The notes under the pieces: model-generated
Told to the model about the DNA's origin: nothing
Database searches by the model: none
What the model saw: only the letters and a program-made list of their open reading frames with translations
Made by a program: the position numbers and the translations under genes
Shown: piece after piece, positions 1-45,900 of the stretch
Position numbering within the stretch: the stretch's first letter is position 1
How the letters are laid out: each line of letters starts with the position of its first letter
Virus record (IMG/VR): IMGVR_UViG_3300049043_000067
Coordinates: 269-64,268 of that record
From: a virus
Lineage: Duplodnaviria > Caudoviricetes
Direction: 5' to 3' (one strand)
DNA length: 64,000 bases

Positions 1-177
1 CTTCTCGGCGTCGAAATCAAAGTATCTCCCGGCCGGTTTTCTCCGTCATCACCCTCGTTAGACAGGATCGTCCCGGATAAGGGCTATGTCCCGGGTAATG
101 TGATGGTTATAAGTTTCAGGGCCAACACGATAAAGAGCGATGCGGAACCCGATGAAGTTGTTTCTCATAGCGAATAA
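1..177 (+). CDS. C-terminal fragment of an HNH-like endonuclease (runs off the window start)
   Basis: Frame 1 translates as ...PSLDRIVPDKGYVPGNVMVISFRANTIKSD...*, the SLDRI-x4-GY-x2-GNV-x6-N-x2-K motif of phage HNH-like nucleases; absent from the ORF track because it lacks a start. Confidence 0.7.
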   Translation, partial: LLGVEIKVSPGRFSPSSPSLDRIVPDKGYVPGNVMVISFRANTIKSDAEPDEVVSHSE

Positions 178-201
178 CCTGCGGCGTATTTTGGGTGACA
201 A

Positions 202-687
202 ATGACACGTAAACCAACAGGCGAACCCATCGACACCGGCACCGCCGAGTTCAACCGTCGCCGTAAGGTGGTCCCTATCAAGATGCGGGCGAGCGTGCTG
301 GTCAGGGTGGTGGACAGCACCGCCATCGACCGGGCGCTGATGAACGCGCATGTCGATCCCGAACAGCACTCGGTACTGGTCGCATTCTCAAACGACTGTT
401 TCATCGCGAGCATGCTCGGGCCCCGGGCGCAGGACTACGGCAAGCCAATGGGGACCGGCGCGCGTCACGACATCGGCGAGCGCGAGGCAGCGGCGCGTCA
501 ACGTATCGGCCGGGCAATTGATCACGTGGACGCGACCAGCGGCAGGCCGGTGAGGGAGAGCCTCTTGCGGATGGTACTCGAAGACAGGGACATGCTGGCC
601 GCCGACGTCCTGTCAGTGGCGCTGTCTCTTGTTGAATTTTACAGAGGTCTCAGGCCGACCCCGCAACGGGCATCACAAGCAGGTTGA
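202..687 (+). CDS. hypothetical phage protein
   Basis: 161-aa ORF with globular composition; converges on the early operon. Confidence 0.55.
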   Translation: MTRKPTGEPIDTGTAEFNRRRKVVPIKMRASVLVRVVDSTAIDRALMNAHVDPEQHSVLVAFSNDCFIASMLGPRAQDYGKPMGTGARHDIGEREAAARQRIGRAIDHVDATSGRPVRESLLRMVLEDRDMLAADVLSVALSLVEFYRGLRPTPQRASQAG

Positions 688-1108
688 ACAGGTCTTTGCT
701 GGCCTCGACCTCGTTCGGGTCGGCACCGATCTCATCCAGCTTGATCAGCGCGCCGTCATAGATCAGGCCGGGCACGTCGAGTTCCCCGGATCCACCCCGC
801 AGCGCCGCGTCCCAGAACATGCGTGTCTGGAGAACCACGGACCCGATGCTCCCGATCTCCAGTGACTTGTCACAGAGTTCTGTGGTGGCGCAGTCGTTGA
901 CGGTCTTGACGCACGCGTCGTGTTCGGGCGTGCCGGGAACACGACAGCGGTGGTCCTTGCTTTCGAGCGTGTTGCGTGTGTGTAAAGTTATTCCGACAAT
1001 CCATTTGGCCAGAAACGTGCAGGCCTCGATGTAGATATACCCGGGCTGGCCGGGAACCGCGCGCTTGATGGCCCGGCGTAGCTTTGTGATTGTGATTTTC
1101 TTCGGCAT
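650..1108 (-). CDS. hypothetical protein (early operon)
   Basis: 152-aa ORF on the same strand as its neighbours. Confidence 0.55.
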   Translation of the reverse strand: MPKKITITKLRRAIKRAVPGQPGYIYIEACTFLAKWIVGITLHTRNTLESKDHRCRVPGTPEHDACVKTVNDCATTELCDKSLEIGSIGSVVLQTRMFWDAALRGGSGELDVPGLIYDGALIKLDEIGADPNEVEASKDLFNLLVMPVAGSA

Positions 1109-1150
1109 GCGCGTGACCCGGGCCGGTGGATCCGACCCGGGCCATTATGA

Positions 1151-1489
1151 TTAGTTCGTGCGCCGTTTCAAGGCGGCGACTTCGTGCATGTAGTGGGTGA
1201 CGTGCTCCGGGCTGAGCCAGCCCAGAACGTCGTCAACCTGAACGGCATGCCCGTCGGGGTGCTTCAGCGTCTGGTCGTAGCACAGGCTGTAGTCCAGCCC
1301 GACGCTGCGCAGGATTGCCAGCTCGTAGAACCCATCGGGTCCGCCGTATGAGTTCGGCCCACGGATGACGCTGACGGCATAGCCGTTGTCGAACTTATGG
1401 ATCGCCCGCTCGCCGCTAGGGTCGGCGGGGTGCCTGCTGAATGTAAGTGTCTGAAAGCTCGGCCTCGAAGTCTGCTTCACGTCGGTCAT
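1151..1489 (-). CDS. conserved phage hypothetical protein
   Basis: Motif FDNGYAVSVIRGPNSYGG..GFYELAIL resembles a recurrent small phage protein; GGAGGAG RBS before the ATG at 1489. Confidence 0.7.
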   Translation of the reverse strand: MTDVKQTSRPSFQTLTFSRHPADPSGERAIHKFDNGYAVSVIRGPNSYGGPDGFYELAILRSVGLDYSLCYDQTLKHPDGHAVQVDDVLGWLSPEHVTHYMHEVAALKRRTN

Positions 1490-1867
1490 TGTACTCCTCC
1501 ACTGTCTCAAGATTTTCGTAGTAATAAATCACGTCATCGACTGCCTTGATGGTCGAGCCGACCATCGAGATAAACACGGCAGCGATGAAGCAGATCAGCA
1601 CGCACCAGAGCATGCCGCCCGCCACCGAATCCCAGAAGCGATCCATCAGGGACCGCCTCCCCCAGCCACCGCGGGGACGCTTGATGGCCCGGCTCACTGC
1701 GTGCCTGCCACAACGAACAGGATGAACAGCGCGACGATCATGTCGAAGATGAACGCGATAACCCCGAAGGTGATCCAGTAAATCTGTTTGATCTTTCTCA
1801 TTCTTTCTCTCCTCTGCGCCGCTTGATCGCGGCTTTGTGTTTGTACCGTACATAAATTAACAACAGG

Positions 1868-2050
1868 CTAACGGGCCGGGACCACCCGGCAAGTAAATGG
1901 CAGGCGCAGGGTGGCTGCGACCCGCCCGGCTAGGTCTTCGCTGGCGAAGGCGTTGACTGTTGCCCGTTTCGCGAGCGCCTCCCGGATCAGTGTGGCCTGC
2001 GCGGCCTGCCGCTCGGGCGGGATGCCCGCCTCTGGTTGTAGTGTGAACAT
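1868..2050 (-). CDS. small hypothetical protein
   Basis: GGAGG RBS then ATG at 2050; 60 aa. Confidence 0.4.
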   Translation of the reverse strand: MFTLQPEAGIPPERQAAQATLIREALAKRATVNAFASEDLAGRVAATLRLPFTCRVVPAR

Positions 2051-2060
2051 TAACCCTCCC

Positions 2061-2086
2061 AAAAAAGAGGGGGCGCTAGCCCCCTC
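2061..2086 (-). terminator. intrinsic terminator
   Basis: Minus strand GAGGGGGC-tagc-GCCCCCTC followed by TTTTTT, just after the stop at 2094. Confidence 0.75.
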
Positions 2087-2093
2087 GTCGCTG

Positions 2094-2321
2094 TCAGAAG
2101 TAGAGCGGGGTGCACCGCTGTGTCGTCGCCTCGAAGGGCAACTTCATTGCCCTGATCGCCGCCTTCGCTGCGGCCTCCGTCTTGTATTGGTTGCGCCGCC
2201 CCTTTGCTTTGTGCCGGGCACCGATCTCGGCCTGTTGCTCGGCACGTTCCGCCTTCCGGCTGTATTCCTGAAAAGAAATCGGGCTCTCGATCCTGAAGAA
2301 GTCGCGTCCTGCATTGATCAT
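2094..2321 (-). CDS. small hypothetical protein
   Basis: GGAGG RBS and ATG at 2321 within ORF 2094..2393. Confidence 0.55.
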   Translation of the reverse strand: MINAGRDFFRIESPISFQEYSRKAERAEQQAEIGARHKAKGRRNQYKTEAAAKAAIRAMKLPFEATTQRCTPLYF

Positions 2322-2485
2322 GTGGTCCTCCGTTGGTCTCGTCACGAGACCCCTGAAATGTAAACAACTAATTGCCAAAAGTAAACAGGACAAATTGTCG
2401 CAGGTAGATCATGTTTGAGTGAAACGTGACAGGGATTTCCGTCACGTCTCGTTAGTATTAATACTTTCGAGAGCCGCCGCCGGTG

Positions 2486-3169
2486 TTACCGGGTCAGCTT
2501 TCTCGTGCCGTGGATCACGACCTGCCGCGCGGTCCAGCTCAGCGCGGTCTCTGGCTTCGCGCCGAAGCCCCGGATATTCGTGCCCCGGTACCGGCCGACG
2601 TACCCGGTCTGCGGCGTGTGCTTGTTGGCCCCGCTCTCGTGGTAAATAATTTCGAAAAGGTCGTACTCCCCGATCTGGTCAACGAGCTTAGCGCGCGCGA
2701 TGAACCGGCGACCGATGACCCCGCCGCCCACGGCTTCGGCGTGCTGCTTCCAGAGCACGCTGATGTTGCACACGGATCCGGGTCTGGTTGATGGCAGGAT
2801 GCCGGAGTGCTTGCCTAGCGCGACGTCAACCATCACATCGGCCGCATGCCGCGCGTCGAGGATCCTGTCGGCGACGGGGTTGTACACGGCGCGCTCGCGC
2901 AGGATCGCGCGCGACCGCCGGATGGTTTCGCGGCAGCCCCAGATCAACTTCAGGCACCCCTTAAACCACGACTGATCGTGATCAGGCAGCGGCGGCCAGT
3001 AATCGAGGTCAGTGAACTCATACCCACTCGATGACGCCGTAATGTTCTTCTTGAACGCATCCCGGAACCGGCGGACATCCTCGCTGGGTAGTTGCTGGGT
3101 GATGACATTGAGCTGGGTCCGGATCTTGTTTTTCAGTGACCGGATGGCATTCACGTTGTTGAGGCTCAT
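2486..3169 (-). CDS. hypothetical protein (early operon)
   Basis: 227-aa ORF with AGGAGA RBS. Confidence 0.7.
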   Translation of the reverse strand: MSLNNVNAIRSLKNKIRTQLNVITQQLPSEDVRRFRDAFKKNITASSSGYEFTDLDYWPPLPDHDQSWFKGCLKLIWGCRETIRRSRAILRERAVYNPVADRILDARHAADVMVDVALGKHSGILPSTRPGSVCNISVLWKQHAEAVGGGVIGRRFIARAKLVDQIGEYDLFEIIYHESGANKHTPQTGYVGRYRGTNIRGFGAKPETALSWTARQVVIHGTRKLTR

Positions 3170-3214
3170 TGGTGTCTCCTGTTTTTGTTAGATGTTACGA
3201 TCATTTTTTAGCGT

Positions 3215-3268
3215 GCTGCGAGCGCAGCGGATGGGGCAGGGAGTTACCCTGCCCACACCGCTAGGCTC
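3215..3268 (-). ncRNA. repeated intergenic RNA hairpin motif A, copy 3
   Basis: GAGCCUAGCGG-[GGGCAGGG/CCCUGCCC]-CCGCUGCGCUC-GCAGC; same architecture as the copies at 4694 and 6863, with compensatory changes. Confidence 0.7.
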
Positions 3269-4679
3269 AGATGTCGGCCGTGTTGATAGTGATCACGGTG
3301 CCGTAGGAGGGCTGTTGCGCACAACCCGTGCGGGCATCGACGGCGACCCAGATCAGGTCACGGTCGAAGTCAGGTGCGGGCGGGATGCCTGCTTCGAGAT
3401 CCGTGAACACCAGCACCCGGTCACCCGGCAGCCAGTGCTCTGCGGCGAAGCTAAGCGCCGCGTGGAACGAGGTGCCACCGCCAGCCTCGTAGCGGTACTC
3501 GATCAGCTCGCCGGGCCCGAAGACCTCGGGCTCGTGTACGTTGTGATCGAATGGCGCGACGATGACGCTATCGGGAGAACGTCTCGCCGATGATGGCGTT
3601 CAGCTCAGCGACGTAGGCGTGCGTCACTGCCTCGCTGATTGATCCTGACTTGTCGATCAGGACGATCAGCTTGCCAACCCCATCGCGTACCGGGGCAGGC
3701 ATGCGCCACGTGCTCAGGCGGCGCGGCAGCCGGGCGTAGGTGTATTCCCGGATGTTCGCGCCCTTGCTCAGCGTGTTGCGCAGCACCGCGCGCCAGTCCA
3801 CCCGGCTCGTGGACAGGTTGGAGACAGCCTTGCGCAGGCTGTCGCTGGCGGTCCCTGCCATCGTCGCCTCGTGCAGGGCGCGCTGCGTCAGCTCGGCGGC
3901 CTCGGCGATCACGCGGTCAGCCTCCTCATCGGAGACGTCGGCGGGCTCGACCTGACCCCAGCCCTGAGCGAGACCAGCCAGAGGATCCTGTGGTTTGTCA
4001 CCGGAACCTTCGGGCTGCTTGTCGTCCGGCGCAGAACCCTCACCTTTGCCGCCGGGCTGTTCGCCGTCGGGCTCCGGCGCAGAACCCTCGCCTTTGCCGC
4101 CGGGCTGTTCGCCCTCGGGCTTGTCCTCGGGCTTGTCCTCGGGCTTGCTCTCGGGCTTGCTCGGCGGCGCGTCTTCCTGCATCGCGTTGTAGATTTCTTC
4201 CCACGACGCGTGCCGCAGGGCCTCGATGCGTGCGGCGGGCCACTTCAGCTCGGCCCCGACCTTGTCGATGGTGACGCAGTCAGCCGGTGGCCGACCGACA
4301 CCGTCGTCGATCAGGATCTGGTTGATTGCGCAGTCCATCGCGATGTTGCACCGTGTCCTGTCGCGGTTACCGAACCTCACGTGATGCGCGAGCAGCGGGT
4401 GGAAGGCCTCGTGGGCCAGTACGAATTTACGCTCTTGCGGCGTCAGTGTTTCGAACCACGCCTCGCAGACGTACAGGTTCGCCTTCTCGTCTACGCCCGC
4501 CGTCCCCTCGGGCAGCGTGATGATCTCGCGCTGCATCAGGGCGGATGCGTAGAACCCGTGATCCCGCATGAGCTGGACCAGCGTGGCTCTCGACCGGCGC
4601 GAGGTTGCGCTGGCCGATCACGGTGCTGGTAATTTTTCGGCGGAACTGTATCAGCCGCCGCTGGATTGTAGCTTGTCAT
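3267..4679 (-). CDS. DUF2201-like metallopeptidase + vWA domain protein (frameshifted near 4600 and 3570)
   Basis: HEAFH zincin motif, NIAMD..IN, acidic Pro/Gly linker, IDKSGSI MIDAS motif; C-terminal GGGT and VFTDL lie in the shifted frame. Confidence 0.85.
4025..4113. repeat. 41-bp direct repeat (48-bp period) in the vWA-protein linker
   Basis: tccggcgcagaaccctc(a/g)cctttgccgccgggctgttcgcc at 4025 and 4073, encoding GEQPGGKGEGSAP twice. Confidence 0.85.
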
Positions 4680-4693
4680 TGTAGCCTCCTTTA

Positions 4694-4750
4694 GCTGCTA
4701 GTGCAGCGGGGAAGGCCCGCCTCGCGGCGGGCCCTCTGGCGCTAAACTAG
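4694..4750 (-). ncRNA. repeated intergenic RNA hairpin motif A, copy 2
   Basis: CUAGUUUAGCG-cca-GAGGGCCCGCC-gcga-GGCGGGCCUUC-cc-CGCUGCACUAG-CAGC. Confidence 0.75.
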
Positions 4751-5787
4751 GCGGACGTTTCCGGCGTTGAGCCAGTCACGGTAGGCCTGATGCTGAACGT
4801 AGTGCTGCTTCTCAGCGTCAGGTGCGGCGGCGTCGCGGTTCACGAGACTTTTTACGAAAAATATCTCGATCTCCTTGCTGGGCAGCCGCGACACGAACTT
4901 CAGTGCGTTGCCGAAGGTCCGGCGGTCAACGAGCTGGCTCAGCAACAGCGCAGTCACGTACTGAAGCTCGCGGCGCTCAGGCACGGCCACCGCGTCGGGC
5001 GTGGTCAGGATCTCCCGGACGTTGCCGATCTGGCTCCTGAGCTTACGGAAGCCGTTGAACGCGGCCGCCTGTTCGACACCGACCTGCCCGGCGATTGCCT
5101 CTGCCTCGATCTCATACGGCAGGCCGAGACCCACCGTCTGGGACACCGCGTCCCAGCTCCGCGGCGTGGGGTTAACATCGCGCTGCGGGTCGTAATTGTG
5201 CAGGGCCTTCTCGCCCGCATAGTCTATGTAAAACGTCACCGCTGGGTCGATCCCGGCCCCGGCAGCGTGCTCGACCCAGTCATCCTTGCCCACCTGCAGG
5301 CCCACAACCGTCAGGCGGTTGAGGTACTGGCCGGGCAGACGCGTCGAACCAGCGCGCGATTTCGCCGGGTTCCACGCCGAGACGATGGTCGTGAACCGTC
5401 CGATTTCGTGGTCACCTGCACGGCGGTCGAGGTGCAGGTTGGCGCAGGCGTTCTGCATCGACAGATGGGCCTGCCCGATTTCGTCGAGAAGCAGGACCCG
5501 CTTGTCGTCGCCTTCCGGCAGGAAGCGCGGGCGAAGCCACCCGGCATACTGACCGTCTGCGAACATGCCACCCGACAGGTCCGTCGGGTCGCGCATGCTG
5601 GCGAGGAAGGTCTGGGTGTATACCCGGACTTGCGGGCGGCCTGAGCCACCAGCGACGACTTGCCGATGCCCGGCTCACCCTCGACGCCGACGCGGATGTA
5701 ATCCAGCGCCGGGCCATTGCGCAGGGCGACCTGCTCGTTGTGCCGGATGACGCTGGTGAGGAACGCAGTGAAAGCCTTAGGACGCAT
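4742..5787 (-). CDS. MoxR-type AAA+ ATPase (frameshift near 5600-5640)
   Basis: Walker A GEPGIGKS (ORF 5311..5787); Walker B LLLDEI, sensor N and TPRSW (ORF 4742..5596); adjacent to the vWA gene. Confidence 0.9.
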
Positions 5788-5819
5788 TGCTTAGTCTCCT
5801 TTTTGTTTCTGTGATGTTC

Positions 5820-5874
5820 GGCCATCATCAGGCTGCACGTTATGCAGCGACCGGATTAACATCCGGTTTCGGCC
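5820..5874 (-). ncRNA. hammerhead ribozyme, type II
   Basis: Minus strand GGCC-GAAA-CCGGAU(guua)AUCCGG-UC^-GCUGCA(uaacg)UGCAGC-CUGAUGA-u-GGCC; complete core with one extra U; GUC site, cleavage predicted between 5849 and 5848. Confidence 0.9.
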
Positions 5875-5945
5875 TTGTAAATTAGTGACTTCCGTCTGTC
5901 AACTCAGGCGGGGATAAGGTGGAGAGGTCACCCTCCCCACCGCGA

Positions 5946-6845
5946 TTACCTGAGGAGCGCCGACATCAGTCCCGACGCTTTGGTAAGTGCATCTGTCCGG
6001 ATAGTATCGGACAGTTTCAGGTGCTCGGCGTCTACCGCGCCCAGCGCTTCCATCTCGGCGCAGACCTTGTCAAACTCCGCGTCACCCAGAAAATTGAGCG
6101 ACCGGCATATCCCAGCAATCTCACGGACATTGCTGACCGTAGACTGCCAGAACGCGCCCTCGGTCCGGATCCCGGACGGCGCGGTCGGATCCGCCACCTG
6201 CTTGTACCGGCCGACCGCCTCGACAAAGCGCTGCAGGACCGCAATGGCGCGGTCCCGGGCGTCTTGCTGGCTTTCCCTGAAGGTTGCCCTCGATCTCAGC
6301 CTGCAGGTCCAGCCGCATCGCGGCAGCCTCATCGGCAGCCAGCGCAAGGCGGAAGTCTTCGTCAACGTCGGCGACGGGCATGAACCCGACGCGGCAGTCG
6401 AACAGGCTGCGCACCTGATCTTCGTCCGGCCATTGGTGTCCGACGTAGGACTGCAGCCCGTTCAGCCGTGCGATGGCCTCGGCGCGGATCGTCGCATACT
6501 GGCCGACGAAGCGGTCAACCGTGGCCCTCCCATTCGCCGACGGCAGCGGCCAGTTCCGCCTCCACCTGCTTCACCGCGGGCATAGGGCAGGATCCTCACA
6601 CCGGCGGCTGCCCACGGCGCGCTGTAGTGTTCAACGACGCGGCGCACACGCTGGGCGTGCTTCGCGAGGGGCTTGAGGTAGTCCTCAGGTACCAGCCGCA
6701 CGACCGCGTTGACGGTGCGGTCGGAGGCTCCCTTGTCCCGCCTCGACCTCGGCGGACAGGCCGCGCGATGTCTTTTTGAAGGACGGGGTTCTCGATGCGC
6801 GACGTACACAAGGCACGCGCGCGACTGCAGGTCCATCTTTGTCAT
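5946..6845 (-). CDS. DUF3150-like protein (several frameshifts)
   Basis: Fragments ...HYSAPW...GVRILP..., ...FMPVAD..DFR..., ...LNFLGDAEF...LKLSDTIR; sits directly upstream of MoxR/vWA, a typical context for this family. Confidence 0.65.
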
Positions 6846-6862
6846 GTCTTAGTCTCTCATTG

Positions 6863-6921
6863 GCTGCGCTAGTGCAGCGGGGAAGGCCCGCCCTAAGGCA
6901 GGCCCTCTGACGCTAGACTAG
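6863..6921 (-). ncRNA. repeated intergenic RNA hairpin motif A, copy 1
   Basis: CUAGUCUAGCG-uca-GAGGGCCUGCC-uuag-GGCGGGCCUUC-cc-CGCUGCACUAG-CGCAGC. Confidence 0.75.
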
Positions 6922-7236
6922 CTCACGAGATCGACCCACGAGGTATCGACCGCGTTGCGTTGCTTTTCGATTTCGATATGCGCGGCGCGCAGGTCGATGA
7001 AGCGTGCGGCGTCTGCCAGCACGTCACGGCGGGATGTCCCCGGGTCCAGTACTGAGATGAAATGACCGGCCTTGTCGTGCACCCGGCCGCGCCAGCACGG
7101 CGCGCGTGTGTTGGATCCACCGGCCCCGGCTGACACCTGTGAAGGTGTCAACGCCTCGCCAGACGGTCACGACGCAGTCGCCGATGATGGCCTTGTAGGT
7201 GTCGGTTGCCACCTTCGTCACTGGTATTTTCGTCAT
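6918..7236 (-). CDS. hypothetical protein (one frameshift)
   Basis: AAGGAGA RBS and ATG at 7236; appears to continue into ORF 6918..7151. Confidence 0.55.
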
Positions 7237-7255
7237 GTTTGTCTCCTTGTTTGTT

Positions 7256-7309
7256 GGTCTCATCAGGCAGCGCCTTACGCTGCGACCGGGTTAAGCCCCG
7301 GTTTCGACC
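7256..7309 (-). ncRNA. hammerhead ribozyme, type II
   Basis: Minus strand GGUC-GAAA-CCGGG(gcuuaa)CCCGG-UC^-GCAGCG(uaagg)CGCUGC-CUGAUGA-GACC; perfect core; cleavage predicted between 7284 and 7283. Confidence 0.95.
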
Positions 7310-7548
7310 TTGTATGCAGCCACCTGCAGGACGGCGGCCTTTCTTTCGCCTCTGGCAAGATACTGAGCCTCCTCAGGCTCCTCAGTCAGGAATGCCTCCC
7401 GGATGTCGGTCGTGAACACGTTGTAGTTGGTCAGGTAGTGCGGCACGCCGCCGATCTTTTTCGTGATCGCGTATTGCCACCGTACCCCGGCGGCACAGGC
7501 TGCTTCGATCAGTGCGACGGCCAGAAAAATTGTTCCGTTGTTTTGCAT
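7291..7548 (-). CDS. hypothetical protein, first gene of the early operon
   Basis: 85 aa with GGAGA RBS; its stop codon lies in the stem III loop of the hammerhead at 7256-7309. Confidence 0.65.
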   Translation of the reverse strand: MQNNGTIFLAVALIEAACAAGVRWQYAITKKIGGVPHYLTNYNVFTTDIREAFLTEEPEEAQYLARGERKAAVLQVAAYKVETGA

Positions 7549-7560
7549 TTTCGTCTCCGT

Positions 7561-7612
7561 TGGTTTCGACCTGCCTCGGTCTCATCAGGCACGCGGCATC
7601 AGCGTGCTACCA
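7561..7612 (-). ncRNA. hammerhead ribozyme, type III
   Basis: Minus strand UGG-UA^-GCACGC(ugaugcc)GCGUGC-CUGAUGA-GACC(gaggca)GGUC-GAAA-CCA; loop1 UGCC is complementary to loop2 GGCA; cleavage predicted between 7608 and 7607. Confidence 0.9.
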
Positions 7613-7896
7613 GCCCAGCCGCCTTTGGAGCGGCTGGTACCCCTGCGGCGAGCCGGGCATTGCACGACGTCTGTGCAATCTCCCCGGCGACTTATGCCCC
7701 TCGTTTCCGTGGGCTGCGCGCAACACCGGAGAACCGGTGGCAGGTGGCTTTCCGCAGGTGACTCTCGCGTGCCTCTCGGCAGGCTTTCCCCCTGGTGGGT
7801 GCAGGCTCGCGTGGGATCCACGGTCTCGGCCAACCCTAGCTGCAACCCGGTCCCTGTAATCCCGCCTGTCGGCTAAACAGTCCGTCGCTGCAACGA
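7608..7896 (-). ncRNA. ~290-nt structured leader RNA of the early operon
   Basis: No credible ORF; many nested stems (UGCC-gaga-GGCA, CACCGG/CCGGUG, AUUGCAC/GUGCAAU within GCCGGG/CCCGGC, CCUGCGG/CCGCAGG, CCAGCCGC/GCGGCUGG) between the promoter and the hammerhead. Confidence 0.6.
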
Positions 7897-7902
7897 GATC
7901 AG

Positions 7903-7931
7903 AACTTAGGGCAGGTCTTGCCAAAACTCAA
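7903..7931 (-). promoter_or_regulatory. sigma70-type promoter of the early operon
   Basis: TTGAGT-17bp-TAAGTT on the minus strand. Confidence 0.55.
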
Positions 7932-8084
7932 CAGGGTATAGATGCGGCAGGGTGTCGCACCCCTGTGCAGGTCTGGAATGTCAGTGAAATCAGACAGATA
8001 CCAATGGAACGACCGCGCGGGGCGGGGTATGCTGCGCAGGTAAACGCTGGCCGGGACAGGCAGCGCAGGCAGATGAGGTGCAGG

Positions 8085-8691
8085 ATGACAGCGCGGAAAC
8101 GCAGGCAGGACGCGGCAGACAGGCTGCAGGGGATCGTGGATGATGCTAGCAACAAGTTACTAGTACTGAAGGGGCCAAAGCGACGGCTCACTGGAGCCGG
8201 AGCGCGAGACATTGAGGGGCAACCCGTCAACCTAGGCAACCTCACGGCAAGGCAGGAAGTGATGGCTGAGGCAGTAGCCAGCGGCCGGACAGGCATCGAC
8301 GCCTACCGCGATCGCGTTTGATTGCCCGACAGCCAGCGACAAGACGGTGGGCAGGAAGGTGAGCAGCCTAATGGGTAAGCCAGCCTTCAGGCAGGCTGTG
8401 GAGCGGCACAGGCAGCGGATAGCAGAAGAGTATCAGCGGGTGTTCCATCGGACCGCGCGCGACATCACGGCGGCGTTGTGGCGGGAAGCGGAGAGCGGGG
8501 AAAATGGCGGAGCGGTGCGGGTGCGAGCGCTTGAACTACTGGGGAAGGATCGGGGCATGTTCTCCGAAAAGGCGCAGAAATCCGAGGGTAAAACGCTTTC
8601 GAGTGAGGAAGTGGAGCAGCAGATTCGGGGAATGTTGGAGACGTATCTCGGAGGAAATGCCTTGATTATCAACGACTTAGAGAAGAAGTGA
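8085..8691 (+). CDS. terS: terminase small subunit (frameshift near 8315)
   Basis: LTARQEVMAEAVASG..GIDAYR HTH start and RVRALELLGK..GMF.EK C-terminal motif typical of TerS. Confidence 0.75.
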
Positions 8692-8968
8692 ATGGTTAGA
8701 GACACTAACCAATCCCAGAGAAAAATGGCGGAAATCAGCCATTCCTCCTCCTTTTGACCCCACCCTCCCCCGACCCCCCCTTTTTTCAGTCGGGTCCCCC
8801 GCGATTCTCCTACATGCGACCAACCACAAACAAAACAATATTTCAAATCCACGCAATAAAATGCATCCCCATCACCTACCCCCACCCCCTCGATTTTCTG
8901 CCGTTTCCAGCGGGTCCCATCCGCGCAATTTCTGCCCCATACCCCATACAAATTTTGAGAAGCCCCTA

Positions 8969-8997
8969 TTGACACTCCATAAACAGCTTGTTAAGCA
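8969..8997 (+). promoter_or_regulatory. sigma70-type promoter
   Basis: TTGACA-17bp-TAAGCA upstream of the gene at 9039. Confidence 0.55.
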
Positions 8998-9038
8998 TCG
9001 GTTCTCGCAGCGTGTGCTGCGTGCTGATGGAGACTGAT

Positions 9039-10614: not shown

Positions 10615-12144
10615 GTGGTCAGCAACCCGATCAGCCCTCACCGCCTGACCACCGCTATGCTATCGGCCCTGCCGATAGCCGAGCGGGAGCGGCTGCTTGA
10701 CCTGCTGAAACAGCTCGAAGACGCAAAGAACAGGGAGAAGGCGAGGACAGACTTCATCGCCTTCACCAAAACGATGTGGCCGGGGTTTATCGCCGGTAAG
10801 CACCACCGGATAATGGCTGACGCCTTCGAGAAGGTCGCCACCGGCAAGAGCAAGCGCATCATCATCAATATGGCTCCCCGACACACGAAGTCGGAGTTCG
10901 CCAGCTTCTTGCTGCCCGCGTGGTATCTGGGAATGTACCCGGACAGGAAGATCATTCAGGCCTCGCACACCGCCGAGCTTTCTGTGAATTTTGGCAGAAA
11001 GGTCAGGAACCTAAGTGGGATCTGATCAGTACCAGACCGTCTTCCCGAACACGCGCCTTCAGCCTGACAGTCAGGCCGCCGGGCGATGGGCGACAGATAT
11101 GGGCGGCGAGTACTTCGCCGTTGGTGTCGGCGGCGCGCTGGCCGGTAAGGGTGCGAACCTGCTGATCATCGACGACCCGCACACCGAGCAGGACGCCATC
11201 TCCGGGATGACGTCGTCTGATGTATACAACAAGGCCTACGAGTGGTTTACCACCGGCCCCCGACAGCGTTTGCAGCCCGGTGCCGCCGTCATCATCGTGA
11301 TGACGCGCTGGTCGAAGCTGGATCTGACTGGTCGATTGCTCGAAAAAGCATGAAAGACTCAGGCACGTCTGAGTGGGAAGTCATTGAATTACCTGCGATA
11401 TTGCCGTCTGGCGACCCGCTTTGGCCTGAGTTCTGGACGAAAGGCGAGCTTGAGGCGGTCAAGGCCGACATCCCGGTCAATCGCTGGAATGCCCAGTACA
11501 TGCAGCAGCCGACCTCCGAGGAAGGCGCGATCATCAAGCGTGAGTGGTGGAAGCTCTGGGACAAGCCCCGCCCGCCGAAGTGCGACAGCGTGATTGTGTC
11601 GTGGGACACGGCATTCGAGACCAAATCCCGCTCAGACTACTCAGCCTGCACGACGTGGGGCGTGTTTCAGGTCGAGGGCAAGAACGGGAAGATGCACCAG
11701 AACCTGATCCTGCTGGACGCCTTCCGGGAGAAGATGGAGTTCCCGGAGCTGAAAAAGGTGGCCAAAAGGCACTACGACTTCTGGAACCCCGACGCCCTGA
11801 TTGTCGAAGCGTCCGCCGCCGGTATCCCCCTCATACAGGAGATGCGTGCCTACGGCATCCCGGTCGAGGATCACCGCGTGAGCTGGGCGCGTGACAAGAA
11901 GGCCCGCGTCAACGCCATCAGCGACATGTTCCAGTCCGGCTTCGTCTGGTATCCGGACCAGCGCTGGGCGCATGAAGTGATTGAGGAGTGCGCCGAGTTT
12001 CCCAACGGCCAGCACGATGACTACGTCGATACGGTATCTCAGGCCCTGCTGCGCGCGCGCAAGGGCGGGCTGCTGCTGGCGTCCGACTATGAATTTGGTG
12101 ACGTGCCACTCGATGACATGTCCATCCCGTTAAACCCATATTGA
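10615..12144 (+). CDS. terL: terminase large subunit (two frameshifts)
   Basis: INMAPRHTKSE Walker A, LLIIDDP Walker B, VMTRW, SWDTAF nuclease Asp and HDDYVD across ORFs 10615, 11015 and 11242. Confidence 0.95.
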
Positions 12145-12151
12145 GGCCATC

Positions 12152-14562
12152 ATGCCCATAACAAAGATCATGACCCCGTCCGGCTCGACGCCGATCAACC
12201 CCACCGAACAGGACGTCGAGATCCCCGATCTTCCGCCTGAACTCTCGGAAATGACCGAGATGGAAGACGGCTCATACATGTTCTCGGAGCCTGAGGACGA
12301 GTCGGCTGTTCCTGAAAGTTTTGACCAGAACCTTGCTGATGTCGTGGAAATCGACGAGCTGATGGCACTCGGGTCAGACCTGATCCAGAAGTTTGAGTCC
12401 GACAAGCGCTCGCGCGACCCGTGGGAGAAGACCTACAAGGACGGCCTTGATCTACTGGGGCTGAAGGTCGAGGCCAGAACGTCGCCGTGGGCCGGTGCGT
12501 CCGGCGTATTTCACCCCGTGCTGGCGGAGGCCGCCATCAGGTTTGAGGCTCAGGCGATGCTTGAGCTTTGCCCGGCGTCCGGACCGGCTGACGTCTCCAC
12601 CTACGGCCGGGAAGACGGCGAGCGCGTCAAGCGCGCCCTGCGCGTGAAGCAGGAGCTGAACTACCAGACGATGAACAAGATGCACGAGTTCCGCGCGGAG
12701 CACGAGCAGATGCTGTTCAACCTCGGACCGGCCGGTTCTGCCTTCAAGAAGGTGTACCGGGACCCGATCACCGGTCGTCCCTGCAGCATTTTCGTTCCGG
12801 CCGAGGACTTTGTCATTGCCTACGGCGCGTCTGACCTCATGACCGCGCCGCGCTACTGTCACGTCATTCGCCAACATGCCAATGAAATCAAGAAGTTACA
12901 GGCTGTCGGCTTCTACCGTAAGTGCAACCTGCCAACGCCGACCCCGAGTACAGCGAAATCGGGAACAAGCGTGACAAATTGCAGGGCGTCCAATCGCAGG
13001 TGGAGTACGACGACCGGCACACCATCCTTGAGTTTCACGTTGACTGCGACATCCCCGGCTTCGAGATGGAGTTTGCGGTACCGTACGTGATCACGGTCGA
13101 GAAGCAGTCCGGCGAGGTGCTATCAATCCGCAGGAACTGGCTCGAAGGCGACCCGCTGATGGAAAAGCGGATGCACTTCGTGCACTACCTGTACTTGCCG
13201 GGATTGGGTTTCTACGGCACCGGGCAGATCCACATTCTCGGCGGCCTCGCGCGCGCGTCAACCTCGATTTTGCGCCAACTTATCGACGCCGGAACCCTGT
13301 CGGTGTTGCCTATGGGATACAAGGCCCGGGGCTTCCGCGTGAAGCAAAACGACCAGCCGCTGCGCCCGGGCGAGTTCCGCGACTCAGACGCCCGCGGGCG
13401 TGCTGCGGGACAATATCTTCGTGATGCCTGCAAAGGATCCGTCGCCAGTGATGGCCCAGATCCTCCAGAACCTCGTCGAGGAGGCCCGCAAGGTGGGCTC
13501 CATCGCCGAGATGGATGTCTCCGGCATGTCGCAGCAGGCCCCGGTTGGCACGACGCTGGCGCTTCTGGAGAGAAATCTCAAGGTTATGTCCGGGGTTCAG
13601 GCCAGACTTCACGCGTCGATGCAGAAGGAACTCAGGCTGATCGCCGACATCATCGGCAGCACCGAAGGAAACTACGAATACGACGAGCAGCCCTACAACC
13701 GGTCCGAGGATTTCGCCGCCGTAGGCAAGGACATCATCCCGGTATCTGATCCGAACGCGTCGATGATGGCGCAGCGCGTGGTCCAGTATCAGGCGGGTAT
13801 GGAACTCGCCTACAAGTCGCCGGACCTGTACAACATGCCTCTCTTCCACCAGCAGATGCTGGGGTGCTGGGCATCAAGGAAGCCGACAAGATCGTCAAGC
13901 TGCCGGAAGACGCCCAGCCGATGGATCCTGTTTCGGAAAATATGGCTATTCTCAATGGCTTACCTGCCAAAGCATTCATCCATCAGGACCATCAGGCTCA
14001 CCTGCAGGTCCATATGGCGATGGTTCAGGACCCGTCCATCCTAGAGAAGGTTGGCCAGTCTCCGGCCGCAGGCAAGATACAGGGTGCGATGTCGGCTCAT
14101 ATTGCCGAGCATCTGGCCTTTGCCTACCGGTCGCAGATCGAGCAGAAGCTCGGCATCCAGTTGCCGCCTCCGGGCGAGCCGCTGCCGCCTGAGGTCGAGG
14201 GCCAGCTTGCGAAGCTGGTGGCCGAGGCCGCGCAGATGGTATTGGCTGAAAATCAGGGCGCAGCCGCCCAGAAGAAGGCCGAGGAGACTGTCAAGGACCC
14301 GATCTTCCAGCTCCAGAAGGAGAAGAACGAGAACCAGCGGCTGGAGGTCATGCGCAAGATGCAGAAGGACAAGGCCGAGCAGGTTATGGGCCTCGTGAAA
14401 ATTATCGCAGATAATGATCAGGAGGTTGCCCGTCTGGCCGTCGAGATGTACAAGGCTAATCAGGGTGTTGACGTCAAACAGGCGACCAACGCCGCCAACG
14501 CAGGCATGAAGCTGGTCGATATTATCGCCCGCTCTCAGACGAAACCGGGTGAACCGCAATGA
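12152..14562 (+). CDS. portal protein (three frameshifts)
   Basis: Follows TerL; PWAGASGVFHPVLAEA, GSAFKKVY, GLGFYG..LIDAGTL, VGTTLALLE and PVSDPN motifs of this portal family. Confidence 0.9.
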
Positions 14563-42904: not shown

Positions 42905-45900
42905 ATGCCTGAGATCAGGGTCCCAACCGCCGACGGCTGGTTTCTCACGCTTTGACATTGACGGAGACAAGCCGTCTCCGGAGCAGCAAGCCCAGATCAG
43001 CGATTATGTAAATCTTTACAATCAACAGTACCCGGCAAGTCAGGCCTCGTCTGCGCCGCAAAACGAGATCGGTCCGTGGAGTGCCGGGTGGAAAAACCTG
43101 TACGCAGATACCACGACTGCCGCGTCGGGCATCGCGCAGTTCTTCAATGCGCCTGAGGCCGCTAAGCGTCTGGAAGATGAAGCCAACGCCGTGCGGGCGG
43201 ATGTGGCCAAACGCTACAACCCCATCGACCTAGACCAGCTCAGCATCGCGAACACCCCGCAGTTCCTGTACGAGAACCTCGTCTCGTCTGTGCCGTACAT
43301 GATCCCCGGCCTACTGACTGGTGGCGTGGGCGGTCTGGCGGCGCGAGGCATCGGGCTCGGCGCACGCGGCATCGCGGCGGCTGGTCAGGCAGGCTACGTC
43401 GCGGGAACCGTCCCGACCTTCACCGGGTCGATGGCCAGCCGTCAGGCGGAAGAGCAGAACATCCCGCTGGCTCAGGTTGACTGGGGCAAGGCGCTGGCTG
43501 CGGGCACCGCCGCCACCGCGCTCGATCTCGTGACACCGAACGTCCTCGGCCTGTTCGGCCGCCTCGCGTCTCGCGTGAAGGCTGGCGACAAGGTGGCAAC
43601 AGAGATGCGCTGACCGAGTGGTGGAAGAACCTGCCGAAGAGTGCCAGTCAACGCGATGGCCTCGGAAAGGCATCACCGAAGGCGCACAGCAGGCCATCGA
43701 AATCTTTCAGGCAAATCCTGAGAAGTTCTACGAGTTCGACAAGGACACGCAGAAGGAGATCGTCACCGCCCTTATCGCTGGCGGGTTGCTCGGTCCCGTC
43801 TTCGAAATCCCCGCGGGCGGCTCTGGCCTTCACGCAGTCCCGCGAGGAGCAGGCACGGCAGAAGCGCTTCGAGGCGCAGCGCAACATCGACAGCGCCATC
43901 GTCAGTGGCGACAGCAGGAAGGCGCCGCCGCCACACAGAAACTGGCAGACGAGTACTCGCGCGCCATCGCGACAGAGGCCCAGTACGCGCAGGACGATAT
44001 CGCGGACGCCTGCCAGTTCGGCCCGGACACGCCGCGCTACAAGCCGTCCGAGGACATGGCTCGCTTCAGGGCCGAGGTCATTGTCTCTGCCACGCCGGTA
44101 CCCCGGCGTCAGTTCCGGTGGCTGGTCGCGACGGGGCGAGACCAATCTCCGAGCATCCGTCGCCTCGACTCGGCACGCAATTCCGCCCAGACCCTGAATG
44201 ATAGCGCGCCGCATTCAGCCTCAATCCTTGAGAGCTTCCCCGTCATCCCCGTCGAGCCTGTCTGCGACCACGCGTGAGGCGCTGGTCCGCAAGCGGTACG
44301 AGATGGGTCAGGCAGAATCTGGACGCCAACACGTCTCTGACCGAAATCAGGAACCTGCTCGGCGATGCCTTCGCAACAGCCGAGAGCCGTCTGGCGGACC
44401 CAAATGATGCCGGGCGACCCATACCGCCCACGTCCATCTTCTCGCCTGTACGGTCCGCTAAATCGGATGTCGAGGCCGAGTCAAAGCCACTCAAGACGCC
44501 GACATTGACCGGGCTGTGGCTGACCTCGCCGCCGCCGAGAAGGCCCCGACTGAAACCGCAGTCAAGAAGCCAACGCCGGTCAACCCGACCACTGGCACGC
44601 CTATCAATAAACCACAGACAGGTCCTGTAGAACCCGGCGCGTATGACGCCGCCGAGATGGCTCAGGCCGCCGACGCCCTGAACGAGCCAGTCGATGAGGA
44701 GTTCCCCGGGTTCGAGCCCGGCGAGCTGGGTGGCGCAGATTACGCACGCAGGCGCGCGCGTGGTGCCGCGCGGGCTGAGCCTCAGGCCGCACCCGCCGCC
44801 GCTCCGTCGCCTGAGGGACCGCGGTTCTCGGTATCTGAAGTGGACGCCGTCACGGCGGAGACTGTCGGCAACGAGGTGAATGAATACGAGATCTTCAAGG
44901 GCGGCAAGCGCGTAGCCACCGTCAAGGGTCTGGCCCCGGCGCAAGAGCGCGCCAACAAGATGATGCAGGCTGAGCCGACGTCTGACGTCAGGGTCAGGCC
45001 GAAGCGCCGCGGGTTCGCTGTAAATGAATACAGAGGATCCAAAGACGGCGATGTGTTTCTCAGCACCGTCAAGACCTTCAACACCCGGGCCGAGGCTCAG
45101 GCAGACGCGGACGCCCGCAATCAGGCGCGCACGGCCCGCGCAGAAGAGCGCACGGCAAACCGCGAAACCATCAAGCGGATACGAGAACCTGATCGAGAAG
45201 CGTCAGGCGGTTGTCGGTCGGCTGATGGCGAGGTCTCCGCTCGCTGGGTGCGCCGGATATGGCGCTCAAGCTGCGCTCGCTCCTGTCGGCCCCTGACAGG
45301 GCGAACGACCCGGCATCGAGGGATACTACAGCCACACCGCGAAGCTGATCGCGCTGGCGATGGACATCTACGATCCGAACATGACCGAGGACCAGATGTT
45401 CGCCCGGATGGTGGGCGTGCTGGATCACGAGTTCGTGCATCACCTGCAGCGTTCAGGCGCGTTCTCGCAGGCAGAGTGGAAGCAGATCGTCAAGTACCTG
45501 CAGAACAATCAGGCCTATGGCCGCGACGGCAGCGTGATCAAGGGCCAGACGTGGTGGGAGCGTGCGCGCGACCAGAACCCGCGCGAGGATGGCGAGAGCG
45601 ACGCCGAGTACGCGTCGAAGATCGCGCGCGCGAGGCAATGTCCGAAGCGTTCAGGTCGTGGGCGCAAAACAAGAAAACAGTTACAGCGAAACCGGCCAGC
45701 ATTTTCCGGCGCATCGTCGAGATCATCAAGACGCTCAGCCGGTTCGGCAAGTCTGATCCCCGCGTCGAGCAGATCTTCCGGGAGATCGACGAAGGCAAGC
45801 GCACCGGTGTCGTGAAGATGAGAACGCCGGATATGGGCGGCGTTGACTTTTCGGCACGTGATGTTAATGTGCCTTTCTCAGGAGGAATAGATGTCCAGCA

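What the first reader, a model, noticed from the sequence alone, without database searches (positions are those of the whole stretch)
3215..6921. Motif A: thrice-repeated covarying hairpin with a built-in alternative stem, occupying the same slots as the hammerheads
Seen: copies at 6863-6921, 4694-4750 and 3215-3268 share NNNN-Y-UAGCG...[internal loop + GC-rich hairpin]...CGCUG-C-NNNN and end in GCAGC. The basal 4 bp covary (UAGU/ACUA in two copies, GAGC/GCUC in the third). The upper stem and loop differ while staying paired, and a Y-C mismatch next to a U-G pair is kept. The 3' GCAGC can instead pair with GCUGC, which excludes the long stem. Each copy overlaps an upstream stop codon and lacks a U-tract. 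I do not recognise it as twister, twister-sister, pistol, hatchet or HDV-like. Inference: a new self-cleaving motif, an RNase III site, or a translation-coupled switch.
Basis: partly seen in the sequence, partly recalled or inferred. Interest (0 to 1): 0.85.

Follow-up and report, generated by a model that had tools for sequence, protein, structure and literature searches.

The report
Two-state hairpin between phage genes
Three gene-boundary RNA hairpins in this lake phage belong to a previously uncatalogued family, shared with many other aquatic phages, that can fold in two mutually exclusive ways and probably marks where the operon's messenger RNA is cut or protected.

Summary
Three ~55-nt hairpins lie on the minus (coding) strand at 3269-3215, 4750-4694 and 6921-6863. 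Each starts on the stop codon of one gene and ends 23-54 nt before the next start codon. None has a U-tract.

They are not a chance pattern. A covariance model built only from other viral contigs finds exactly these three sites in the 64-kb window (38.7, 27.6 and 20.9 bits; the next hit scores 11.3).

The family has 53 distinct sequences in 52 of 91 sources searched. In the long hairpin, 20 of 21 pairs show compensatory changes. The element is therefore truly bistable, with a median predicted energy gap of 5.7 kcal/mol.

Rfam 15 has no match, and it recognises no hammerhead anywhere in the window.

My best reading (0.4) is a T7-type RNase III-like intercistronic processing and stability site. 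After cleavage, the downstream product would refold into a protective 5' hairpin. The main rival is a switch flipped by the ribosome terminating on the embedded stop codon. A ribozyme is unlikely. Function is untested because no RNA data were available.

The parts
3215..3269 (-). Copy A: stop UGA (3269-3267), basal stem GAGC/GCUC, C.C mismatch, lower stem UAGCGGUG/CA-U-CCGCUG, 8-bp upper stem with UAACU loop, tail GCAGC (3219-3215)
   Evidence: Sequence. Fold -37.7 kcal/mol, z -5.2. R1 hit 3269-3209, 38.7 bits, E 1e-9, from a model that holds no window sequence.
4694..4750 (-). Copy B: basal CUAGU/ACUAG, U.C mismatch, UAGCG/CGCUG (its UAG 4744-4742 is the stop of the ATPase ORF), 3x2 internal loop, 11-bp upper stem with GCGA loop, tail GCAGC (4698-4694)
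   Evidence: Fold -38.3 kcal/mol, z -4.8. R1 hit 4750-4688, 20.9 bits, E 4.8e-4. The ORF 4742-5596(-) matches ATPase phrog_1297.
6863..6921 (-). Copy C: stop UAG (6920-6918) inside basal stem CUAGU/ACUAG, C.C mismatch, UAGCG/CGCUG, 3x2 internal loop, 11-bp upper stem (one U.G pair) with UUAG loop, tail GCAGC (6867-6863)
   Evidence: Fold -39.8 kcal/mol, z -4.4. R1 hit 6921-6857, 27.6 bits, E 3.5e-6.
3215..3229 (-). Alternative hairpin of copy A: GCUGC (3228-3224), loop GCUC, GCAGC (3219-3215); mutually exclusive with the lower stem
   Evidence: The forced-alternative fold is 7.6 kcal/mol above the long hairpin. Family covariation of this helix.
4694..4708 (-). Alternative hairpin of copy B: GCUGC, loop ACUA, GCAGC
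   Evidence: Energy gap 4.3 kcal/mol. With downstream context the minimum-energy fold already contains this hairpin.
6863..6879 (-). Alternative hairpin of copy C: GCUGC, loop ACUAGC, GCAGC
   Evidence: Energy gap 4.1 kcal/mol. With downstream context the minimum-energy fold contains this hairpin.
3167..3169 (-). Start codon of the gene downstream of copy A (ORF 2486-3169), 54 nt after the mismatch C; preceded by AGGAG
4677..4679 (-). Start codon of the DUF2201/VWA gene downstream of copy B, 23 nt after the mismatch C; preceded by AAGGAGG
6843..6845 (-). Start codon of the gene downstream of copy C (ORF 6462-6845), 28 nt after the mismatch C

Best explanation
The three copies belong to an uncatalogued family of intercistronic mRNA elements found in aquatic tailed phages.

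Shown:
- Each element is read on the coding strand and begins on the stop codon of the upstream gene.
- It can adopt two mutually exclusive folds, and both are kept by compensatory evolution.
- Fold 1 is a helix of about 20-22 bp: a 4-5 bp basal stem, a conserved N.C mismatch, a 5-8 bp lower stem, a bulge or small asymmetric loop, and a 7-11 bp GC-rich upper stem.
- Fold 2 keeps the upper hairpin. The freed 3' strand (GCUGC) pairs with a downstream tail (GCAGC) to form a second small hairpin 8-30 nt before the next ribosome-binding site.

Inferred:
- Fold 1 is a processing and stability signal of the kind phage T7 places between its early genes. A host RNase III-type enzyme, or decay arriving from upstream, cuts or removes one side near the internal loop.
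- The upstream cistron keeps a protective 3' hairpin.
- The released 3' strand snaps into fold 2, giving the downstream cistron a protective 5'-terminal hairpin.
- The conserved mismatch would weaken the cut duplex so that the two products separate.
For: 1. Real family. Model R1 was built from 33 sequences of other viral contigs. It finds exactly the three window copies (38.7, 27.6, 20.9 bits; next 11.3).
2. Long hairpin. On alignment A4, 89.3% of cells are paired and 20 of 21 pairs show changes on both sides. The covariation score is 0.499 against 0.185 for shuffles (0 of 500 reach it). Slid controls give 36-42% pairing.
3. Alternative helix. 84.3% of cells are paired and 4 of 5 pairs show changes on both sides. 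There are 28 doubly changed cells against 9.1+-2.6 in shuffles (0 of 500). 42 of 53 distinct sequences have 5 of 5 pairs, in 11 haplotype combinations (GCUGC/GCAGC 23, GAUGC/GCAUC 7, ACUGC/GCAGU 2, GGUGC/GUACC, GCUAC/GUAGC, GAUGG/CCAUC and others). All departures in tail-bearing rows are G.U wobbles, never A.C.
4. Position. In 59 of 59 contexts an ORF stops 0-10 nt before the lower stem. The next start lies 17-54 nt after it, median 31 (55 contexts with a call).
5. Architecture like T7. Folded T7 early intergenic regions show the stop codon in or at the base of the hairpin, an 8-9 bp lower stem, an asymmetric internal loop, a 9-10 bp upper stem, and shared sequence between sites. R1.1 is described as an RNase III site with an asymmetric 4/5 internal loop (passages of PMC6121014). 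A single cut that leaves a 3' hairpin stabilises the mRNA, and 5' hairpins raise half-life (passages of PMC6993053).
6. Refolding. If the RNA is started just after the upper stem, the alternative hairpin forms in 12 of 14 tested members, with 5 or fewer free 5' nucleotides.
7. Not a terminator. No U-tract follows any copy, although the same operon has a canonical U-tract terminator at 2086-2067(-).
Against: - No cleavage or RNA-end data exist. No RNA sequencing run was on offer.
- 11 of 53 distinct family members lack the tail, so a 5' hairpin is not obligatory.
- Model R1 finds nothing in T7 1-9000 (best 10.5 bits). The likeness to T7 sites is architectural, not homology.
- The invariant A-U pair (53 of 53), the U.G pair (44 of 53) and the mismatch C (49 of 53) are more sequence-specific than RNase III is known to need (my knowledge). 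They would fit a specific protein partner, or simply the double pairing constraint.
- The strict embedding of the stop codon, and the small energy gap between the folds (median 5.7 kcal/mol, as low as -1.8), fit a ribosome-driven switch at least as well.
- In five rows (3' strand GGUGC) the lower stem carries a G.G mismatch while the alternative helix is compensated. Fold 2 therefore matters in its own right.
- Sense and antisense strands fold equally well across the family (-29.35 against -28.78 kcal/mol; sense more stable in 24 of 47, less in 22). Strand choice rests on gene orientation and on wobble pairs in the alternative helix, not on energy.
Confidence: 0.4

Rival explanations
1. Ribosome-actuated switch. 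A ribosome terminating on the embedded stop codon unwinds the basal stem and part of the lower stem. This tips the near-balanced element into fold 2. The fold then reports 'upstream gene translated' to some downstream step, such as nuclease access, RNA polymerase pausing, or re-initiation at the next gene.
For: - The stop codon lies 0-10 nt before the lower stem in 59 of 59 contexts.
- The energy gap between the folds is small: median 5.7 kcal/mol, 4.1-7.6 in the window, and -1.8 to 1.4 in six members. Loss of the 4-5 bp basal stem should be enough to flip it.
- The alternative helix covaries. In the GGUGC rows it is kept even where the lower stem is not.
- With downstream context, 4 of 14 members, including window copies B and C, already have fold 2 as their minimum-energy structure.
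Against: - No output is visible. The Shine-Dalgarno region and the AUG are not systematically more paired in one state than in the other.
- The tail is not followed by a U-run in the window.
- Stop codons at the base of intergenic hairpins also occur in T7, so they may simply reflect tight gene packing.
- 11 of 53 members have no tail.
Confidence: 0.25
2. Binding site for a specific factor. This could be a phage or host RNA-binding protein, or RNA polymerase itself as with the put RNAs of phage HK022. The factor would recognise one of the two folds. Fold 2 is two hairpins separated by about one nucleotide.
For: - Some paired bases are invariant: A-U in 53 of 53, U.G in 44 of 53, and the mismatch C in 49 of 53.
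- The same core occurs in phages with no protein similarity in the sequence held around the motif.
- Fold 2 is two adjacent hairpins.
- The likeness to put RNA is recalled, not tested.
Against: - No shared candidate protein was found. Window ORFs match contig G001 only in structural proteins, and match contig G002 not at all.
- The loop sequences of both hairpins vary freely.
- The double pairing constraint alone could freeze the conserved bases.
Confidence: 0.12
3. DNA-level or mobile element. This would be a REP-like palindrome or recombination cassette that spreads between phages, with no RNA function.
For: - The same 18-nt core occurs in otherwise dissimilar phages.
- Sense and antisense strands fold equally well.
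- Several copies occur per genome: 3 in the window and 4 in L147.
Against: - All 59 contexts lie on the coding strand, at a fixed place between a stop codon and a start codon.
- The alternative helix tolerates G.U wobbles but shows no A.C mismatches.
- Stems covary instead of being copied.
- A scan of 185,579 species genomes found only 1 true copy among 6 hits, on a 2.8-kb MAG contig. It is therefore not a host repeat family.
Confidence: 0.08
4. Transcription attenuator. The small 3' hairpin would act as a weak terminator and the long hairpin as its anti-terminator.
For: - In some relatives the tail is followed by UUUU or UUU (for example GCAGCUUUUAAC).
- In the slot after the 90-aa gene, some relatives carry a canonical terminator where others carry the motif.
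Against: - The window tails are followed by UAAAGG, CAAUGA and ACGCUA.
- Most family members have one to three U here.
- The stem is only 5-6 bp.
Confidence: 0.05
5. A new class of self-cleaving ribozyme.
For: - The motif is not in Rfam.
- It has a conserved mismatch, a U.G pair and bulges.
- It lies between phage genes, where ribozymes are known to occur (my knowledge).
- Alternative folds are common in ribozymes (my knowledge).
Against: - It is a nearly continuous hairpin.
- The internal loop varies in size and sequence between subtypes: 1-nt bulges, 2x3, 3x3, 3x2 and 2x2.
- No junction or pseudoknot is seen.
- Conserved bases are mostly paired.
Confidence: 0.04

Closest known systems
RNase III processing sites of the phage T7 early operon (R0.3, R0.5, R1, R1.1, R1.3)
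   Same: - Both are repeated hairpins between genes of one polycistronic mRNA.
- The stop codon lies in or at the base of the hairpin.
- Both have a helix of about 20 bp, broken by an asymmetric internal loop about 10 bp below the apical loop.
- No U-tract follows.
- The next ribosome-binding site lies 15-35 nt downstream.
- Copies within a phage share helix sequence.
Sources: folds of T7 intergenic regions; R1.1 described in passages of PMC6121014. The site names and positions are recalled.
   Different: - There is no sequence or model similarity (R1 on T7: best 10.5 bits).
- The T7 folds show no covarying alternative helix that uses the 3' strand.
- Cleavage of the present motif is untested.
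Leader-type attenuators (trp operon logic)
   Same: Both have three segments that pair 1:2 or 2:3, and a stop codon placed so that a terminating ribosome masks segment 1. This comparison is my knowledge.
   Different: The 2:3 hairpin here has no U-tract in the window. The upstream ORFs are full-length genes, not leader peptides.
REP/BIME extragenic palindromes
   Same: Both are imperfect palindromes after stop codons inside operons, thought to protect upstream mRNA. This comparison is my knowledge.
   Different: The motif is not a host repeat: 1 true copy in 185,579 species genomes for the tested pattern. It has a single orientation. Its stems covary.
Synthetic insulator RiboJ (ribozyme followed by a hairpin)
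   Same: Both follow a 'cut, and leave a hairpin at the new 5' end' logic that insulates and stabilises the downstream cistron (passages of PMC6993053).
   Different: RiboJ is man-made and cuts itself. Here the cut, if there is one, would be made by a nuclease, and the 5' hairpin is assembled from one strand of the cleaved helix.
put RNAs of phage HK022; PeSL promoter/stem-loop cassettes of T4-type phages
   Same: Both are cis-acting structured cassettes in early operons. put RNA consists of two adjacent stem-loops. This comparison is recalled and not tested.
   Different: No comparison was run. No promoter is seen in the motif.

Membership tests
Rfam self-cleaving ribozymes (hammerhead, twister, twister-sister, pistol, hatchet, HDV-like) and all other Rfam 15 families | Match to the family covariance model at or near its gathering score | tested here: not met
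   0 matches at gathering score and at E<=1 on the whole window. At E<=10 on 3100-7000 there are only chance hairpin hits (isrB 18.4 of 35 bits, HCV_SL588 17.6 of 79 bits). Four relatives' loci give nothing relevant.
Self-cleaving ribozyme (any class) | Protein-free site-specific self-cleavage | not testable with these tools
   Needs an in-vitro transcript assay.
T7-type RNase III intercistronic processing site | Lies between cistrons of one mRNA, directly after the upstream stop codon | tested here: met
   Window copies. 59 of 59 family contexts. T7 shows the same layout.
T7-type RNase III intercistronic processing site | About two helical turns of irregular duplex, with an asymmetric internal loop or bulge about 10 bp from the apical loop | tested here: met
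   compared with T7 folds and with the R1.1 description in PMC6121014.
T7-type RNase III intercistronic processing site | Sequence or structure homology to the T7 sites | tested here: not met
   R1 search of T7 1-9000 with filters off: best 10.5 bits, E 0.15.
T7-type RNase III intercistronic processing site | Cleavage by RNase III in vivo or in vitro | not testable with these tools
   No RNA holder was listed for the window.
Intrinsic (Rho-independent) terminator | GC-rich hairpin directly followed by a U-run | tested here: not met
   No terminator-like site is reported at the three copies. The tails read GCAGC then ACGCUA, UAAAGG or CAAUGA.
REP-like host repeat | Many copies in bacterial chromosomes, in both orientations | tested here: not met
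   The genome-contig scan with the core-plus-tail pattern gave 6 stretches, of which 1 folds as the motif, on a 2.8-kb MAG contig. Only this one pattern was scanned.
The new family itself (model R1) | Significant score to a model built without the window, on the coding strand, between a stop codon and a start codon | tested here: met
   38.7, 27.6 and 20.9 bits (E 1e-9, 3.5e-6, 4.8e-4), against 11.3 bits for the next hit.

The most novel reading that the evidence does not exclude
The element is a ribosome-actuated two-state RNA. Termination on the stop codon buried in its base flips a near-isoenergetic long hairpin into a two-hairpin form. This couples translation of one phage gene to the processing, stability or transcription of the next. 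It would be a new class of translation-sensing gene-boundary switch, exchanged among unrelated aquatic phages.
Probability: 0.25. Interest if true: 0.8.

Novelty: new variant of a known kind. Interest (0 to 1): 0.62.

Why it matters
Hairpins between phage genes are common, but they are usually written off as terminators or stabilisers. Here two mutually exclusive helices are both maintained by compensatory mutations, across phages that share no local protein similarity. The element always sits on a stop codon.

This gives a compact (~60 nt), well-defined candidate for studying how operon mRNAs are punctuated, by processing or by ribosome-driven refolding, in aquatic phages whose closest cultured match is a roseophage. 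It is also a possible natural 'insulator' part for synthetic operons. The covariance model built here allows it to be annotated in viromes.

Tried and rejected
- Hammerheads or any known RNA family: rejected.
- tRNA or tmRNA in the window: none.
- Near-identical phage records: none.
- Relatives of the window's DUF2201 protein: none in viral contigs. In metagenome contigs, 196 pattern matches but none confirmed. The syntenic slots of close relatives of the window phage could therefore not be examined.
- The B/C-type word pattern found only one chance match in viral contigs.
Of the folded matches listed, only L082 was a true copy.
- The second pattern gave 53 loci, of which 20 contigs hold true copies and the rest have no inner hairpin.
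- Host REP family: rejected.
- Virion RNA polymerase hairpin promoter (N4-like): dropped. The 1566-aa ORF matches only an internal virion protein (PDB 9sfn_G) and DUF7178. It has a short phrog_2206 hit outside any polymerase evidence, and the phage has an integrase.
- T7-like ancestry of the relatives: not shown. G001 has DNA polymerase, helicase and primase but no RNA polymerase among the 10 ORFs scanned. Only one 230-aa protein is 62% identical to Roseobacter phage CRP-118, whose genome has no motif.
- Sequestration of the ribosome-binding site by either fold: not seen.
- Strand choice by folding energy: no difference.
- RNA evidence: no RNA holder was listed. One DNA run (X1) holds 0.43 of the sampled words.
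- Literature. Searches (0 papers; 7 listed; 12 of 26 listed; 2 listed) turned up no description of this motif. I saw only listings, plus passages of PMC10690425, PMC6121014 and PMC6993053.
- PMC10690425 catalogues 8,495 candidate structured RNAs from IMG/VR. Its alignments are in supplements that were closed, so the motif may already be listed there under a DNAVirus_ number.

Full report
What is there. The window is almost all of a 64,268-bp single-contig virus record (one search calls G000 a virus record). It has 59.8% G+C. It encodes a terminase, portal fragments, tail-fibre-like and internal virion proteins, a tyrosine integrase, nucleases and a primase/helicase. The left arm (about 1-10.6 kb) is coded on the minus strand.

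Each copy has the same layout:
- a stop codon of the upstream ORF;
- a 4-5 bp basal stem;
- a pyrimidine.C mismatch;
- a UAGCG/CGCUG lower stem whose first pair is U.G;
- a bulge or 3x2 internal loop;
- a GC-rich upper stem of 8-11 bp;
- then GCAGC, a Shine-Dalgarno sequence and an AUG.

The neighbouring genes are a frame-broken ATPase (phrog_1297) and a DUF2201 metallopeptidase/VWA gene, plus genes of unknown function. The minus-strand RNAs fold at -37.7 to -39.8 kcal/mol, with z -4.4 to -5.2. No U-tract follows any copy. A textbook U-tract terminator does exist further down the same arm, at 2086-2067(-).

Is it more than chance? The bare word pattern is not significant: 3 matches against 1.57 expected. 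I therefore looked outside the window.

A loose pattern in IMG/VR gave mostly chance hits, but also one contig (L082) with two copies of the same core as copy A. A tighter pattern gave 53 loci that split cleanly. 20 contigs have a strong inner hairpin and a paired basal stem. The rest have neither. Using a 90-aa protein that sits between two motif slots, I then fetched 80 related loci without regard to the motif. Many of these carry variants whose lower stem is changed on both strands (UAGCCC/GGGCUG, UAGCUC/GAGCUG, UAUUGG/CCAAUG, UAUCA/UGAUG, UAGUGG/CCACUG).

A covariance model (R1) was built from 33 of these sequences and no window sequence. Run with filters off, it scores the three window copies at 38.7, 27.6 and 20.9 bits (E 1e-9, 3.5e-6, 4.8e-4). 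The next hit scores 11.3 bits. The window therefore holds exactly three members of a wider family.

Structure. A search of 91 sources gave 89 hits, stored as alignment A4. I set aside 20 rows that are the antisense reading of the same sites (rows 58, 59, 61, 62, 65, 66, 68, 69, 73, 74, 76, 77, 79, 80, 82, 84-88). That leaves 69 sense rows and 53 distinct sequences, from 52 sources. Some sources are overlapping pieces of one contig.

On the full A4, the long hairpin has 89.3% of cells paired. 20 of 21 pairs show changes on both sides. The covariation score is 0.499 against 0.185 in shuffles (0 of 500 reach it), and slid controls give 36-42%. The alignment was fitted to this structure, which favours it.

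The conserved positions are an A-U pair (53 of 53), the U.G pair next to it (44 of 53), the mismatch C (49 of 53), and an N.C mismatch (47 of 53).

The alternative stem. The model treats the tail as unpaired, so this test is not biased by the fit.
- On A4, the helix (columns 51-55 with 66-70) is 84.3% paired.
- 4 of 5 pairs show changes on both sides.
- There are 28 doubly changed cells against 9.1+-2.6 in shuffles (0 of 500). Slid controls give 18-62%.
- Among the 53 distinct sense sequences, 42 have 5 of 5 pairs, in 11 haplotype combinations: GCUGC/GCAGC (23), GAUGC/GCAUC (7), ACUGC/GCAGU (2), GGUGC with GUACC, GUGCC or GCAUC, GCUAC/GUAGC, GAUGG/CCAUC, plus wobble variants.
- 11 have no tail.
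- In the GGUGC rows the lower stem carries a G.G mismatch while the tail has changed to keep the alternative helix.

Forced folding shows that the second state also extends the upper hairpin by a register shift (GGUG with CAUC). It lies a median 5.7 kcal/mol above the long hairpin, with a range of -1.8 to 15.3. The window copies have gaps of 7.6, 4.3 and 4.1 kcal/mol. With downstream context, 4 of 14 members tested, including window copies B and C, already have the second state as their minimum-energy fold.

Context. In 59 of 59 distinct contexts an ORF of at least 42 open codons stops 0-10 nt before the lower stem. The offsets are -6 (25 contexts), -8 (18), -7 (5), 0 (5), -9 (4), -10 (1) and -5 (1). 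At least two of the '0' calls are frame mis-picks of my heuristic. A start codon with a purine-rich Shine-Dalgarno follows 17-54 nt later, median 31, in the 55 contexts where one was called. All copies are on the coding strand.

The relatives' loci have 50-62% G+C and no protein similarity to the window around the motif. One complete-ish relative (G001, 39 kb) does share virion structural proteins with the window at 38-43% identity. It encodes DNA polymerase, helicase and primase. One 230-aa protein in the relatives is 62% identical to a protein of Roseobacter phage CRP-118 (Autographiviridae). That genome has no motif. A scan of 185,579 species genomes with the core-plus-tail pattern found one true copy, on a 2.8-kb MAG contig. 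The motif is therefore phage-borne and not a host repeat.

What it is not. Rfam 15 has no match for the window copies or for relatives. This also means the hammerheads in the finding's title are not recognised. It is not an intrinsic terminator, since there is no U-run. A ribozyme is unlikely: the element is an almost continuous helix, and its internal loop changes in size and sequence between subtypes.

How it most likely works. I folded the early intergenic regions of phage T7. They show the same plan:
- the stop codon in or at the base of the hairpin;
- a lower stem of 8-9 bp;
- an asymmetric internal loop;
- an upper stem of 9-10 bp;
- no U-tract;
- the next ribosome-binding site close by;
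- shared helix sequence between sites.

That these T7 hairpins are the RNase III sites is partly recalled. It is partly supported by passages of PMC6121014 (R1.1, between genes 1.0 and 1.1, with an asymmetric 4/5 internal loop, cleaved in vivo) and of PMC6993053 (R0.5 and R1.1; a single cut leaves a stabilising 3' hairpin; 5' hairpins raise half-life). R1 finds nothing in T7, so this is analogy and not membership.

My preferred model (confidence 0.4) is a T7-like processing and stability site with one addition. Once the helix is cut, or its 5' strand is degraded, the 3' strand pairs with the tail. This gives the downstream cistron a 5'-terminal hairpin, which forms in 12 of 14 simulated 3' products. 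The model explains the three-way covariation and the conserved helix-weakening mismatch.

The main rival (0.25) is a switch flipped by the terminating ribosome. It is favoured by the strict stop-codon embedding and the small energy gap, but I could find no output for it. The ribosome-binding site is not differentially masked. The other rivals are a specific protein or polymerase partner (0.12), a DNA-level mobile palindrome (0.08), an attenuator (0.05) and a ribozyme (0.04).

Limits.
- No RNA data were available.
- The window sequence has many frame breaks that look like indel errors, so single bases of the copies may be wrong.
- Sense and antisense strands fold equally well across the family.
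- The family was collected partly with patterns that fix some bases. The 80 protein-anchored loci and the model search relax this, but only within one phage group.

Verdict. This is a real, conserved, bistable gene-boundary RNA element that is not in Rfam. It is a new variant of the known kind 'intercistronic phage mRNA hairpin'. Its mechanism is inferred, not shown.

Noticed in passing
window 5785-5950 (-): A 166-nt intergenic stretch before the ATPase gene is strongly structured (MFE -61.7 kcal/mol, z -4.9, several hairpins). It contains the words CUGAUGA and GAAAC but has no Rfam hammerhead match. It also holds a fourth GCUGCA-loop-UGCAGC hairpin at 5849-5832 that resembles the motif's alternative hairpin.
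   Followed up: partly
window, many genes (e.g. 4742-5787, 3267-4679, 5946-6845, 11242-14562): Genes are split into overlapping frames throughout: the ATPase, the DUF2201/VWA gene, and the terminase and portal. This looks like indel errors in the assembly rather than biology.
   Followed up: no
window 2067-2086 (-): A canonical intrinsic terminator (8-bp GC stem followed by UUUUUU) lies inside the left arm. More minus-strand ORFs follow it.
   Followed up: no
L230, L197, L245, L251 (upstream of the 90-aa gene): The relatives' early regions carry sigma-70-like promoters (TTGTAG/TTGAAG-N17-TACAAT) directly before genes, with a GC hairpin placed inside the spacer.
   Followed up: no
L197, L198, L201, L207 (just after the 90-aa gene): In the slot where other relatives carry the motif, these carry a canonical hairpin plus U-run terminator. 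Other slots hold plain GC hairpins without a U-run.
   Followed up: partly
window 44516-52119 (+): A 1566-aa ORF matches an internal virion protein (PDB 9sfn_G, E 2.6e-18) and DUF7178. The following ORFs match giant phage proteins of unknown function and a large-polyvalent-protein domain.
   Followed up: no
window ~58100-58310: A repetitive GCCGTAGCC/GGAGCC stretch turned up as fuzzy pattern hits. It is probably a Gly-rich repeat coding region on the minus strand.
   Followed up: no
L268 (T7 850-930, 1428-1500, 5850-5925, 6410-6480): The T7 early intergenic hairpins share the words CUCAAGGUC and GUGGCCUUUAUGAUU. Two of them have the upstream stop codon inside or next to the hairpin base.
   Followed up: partly
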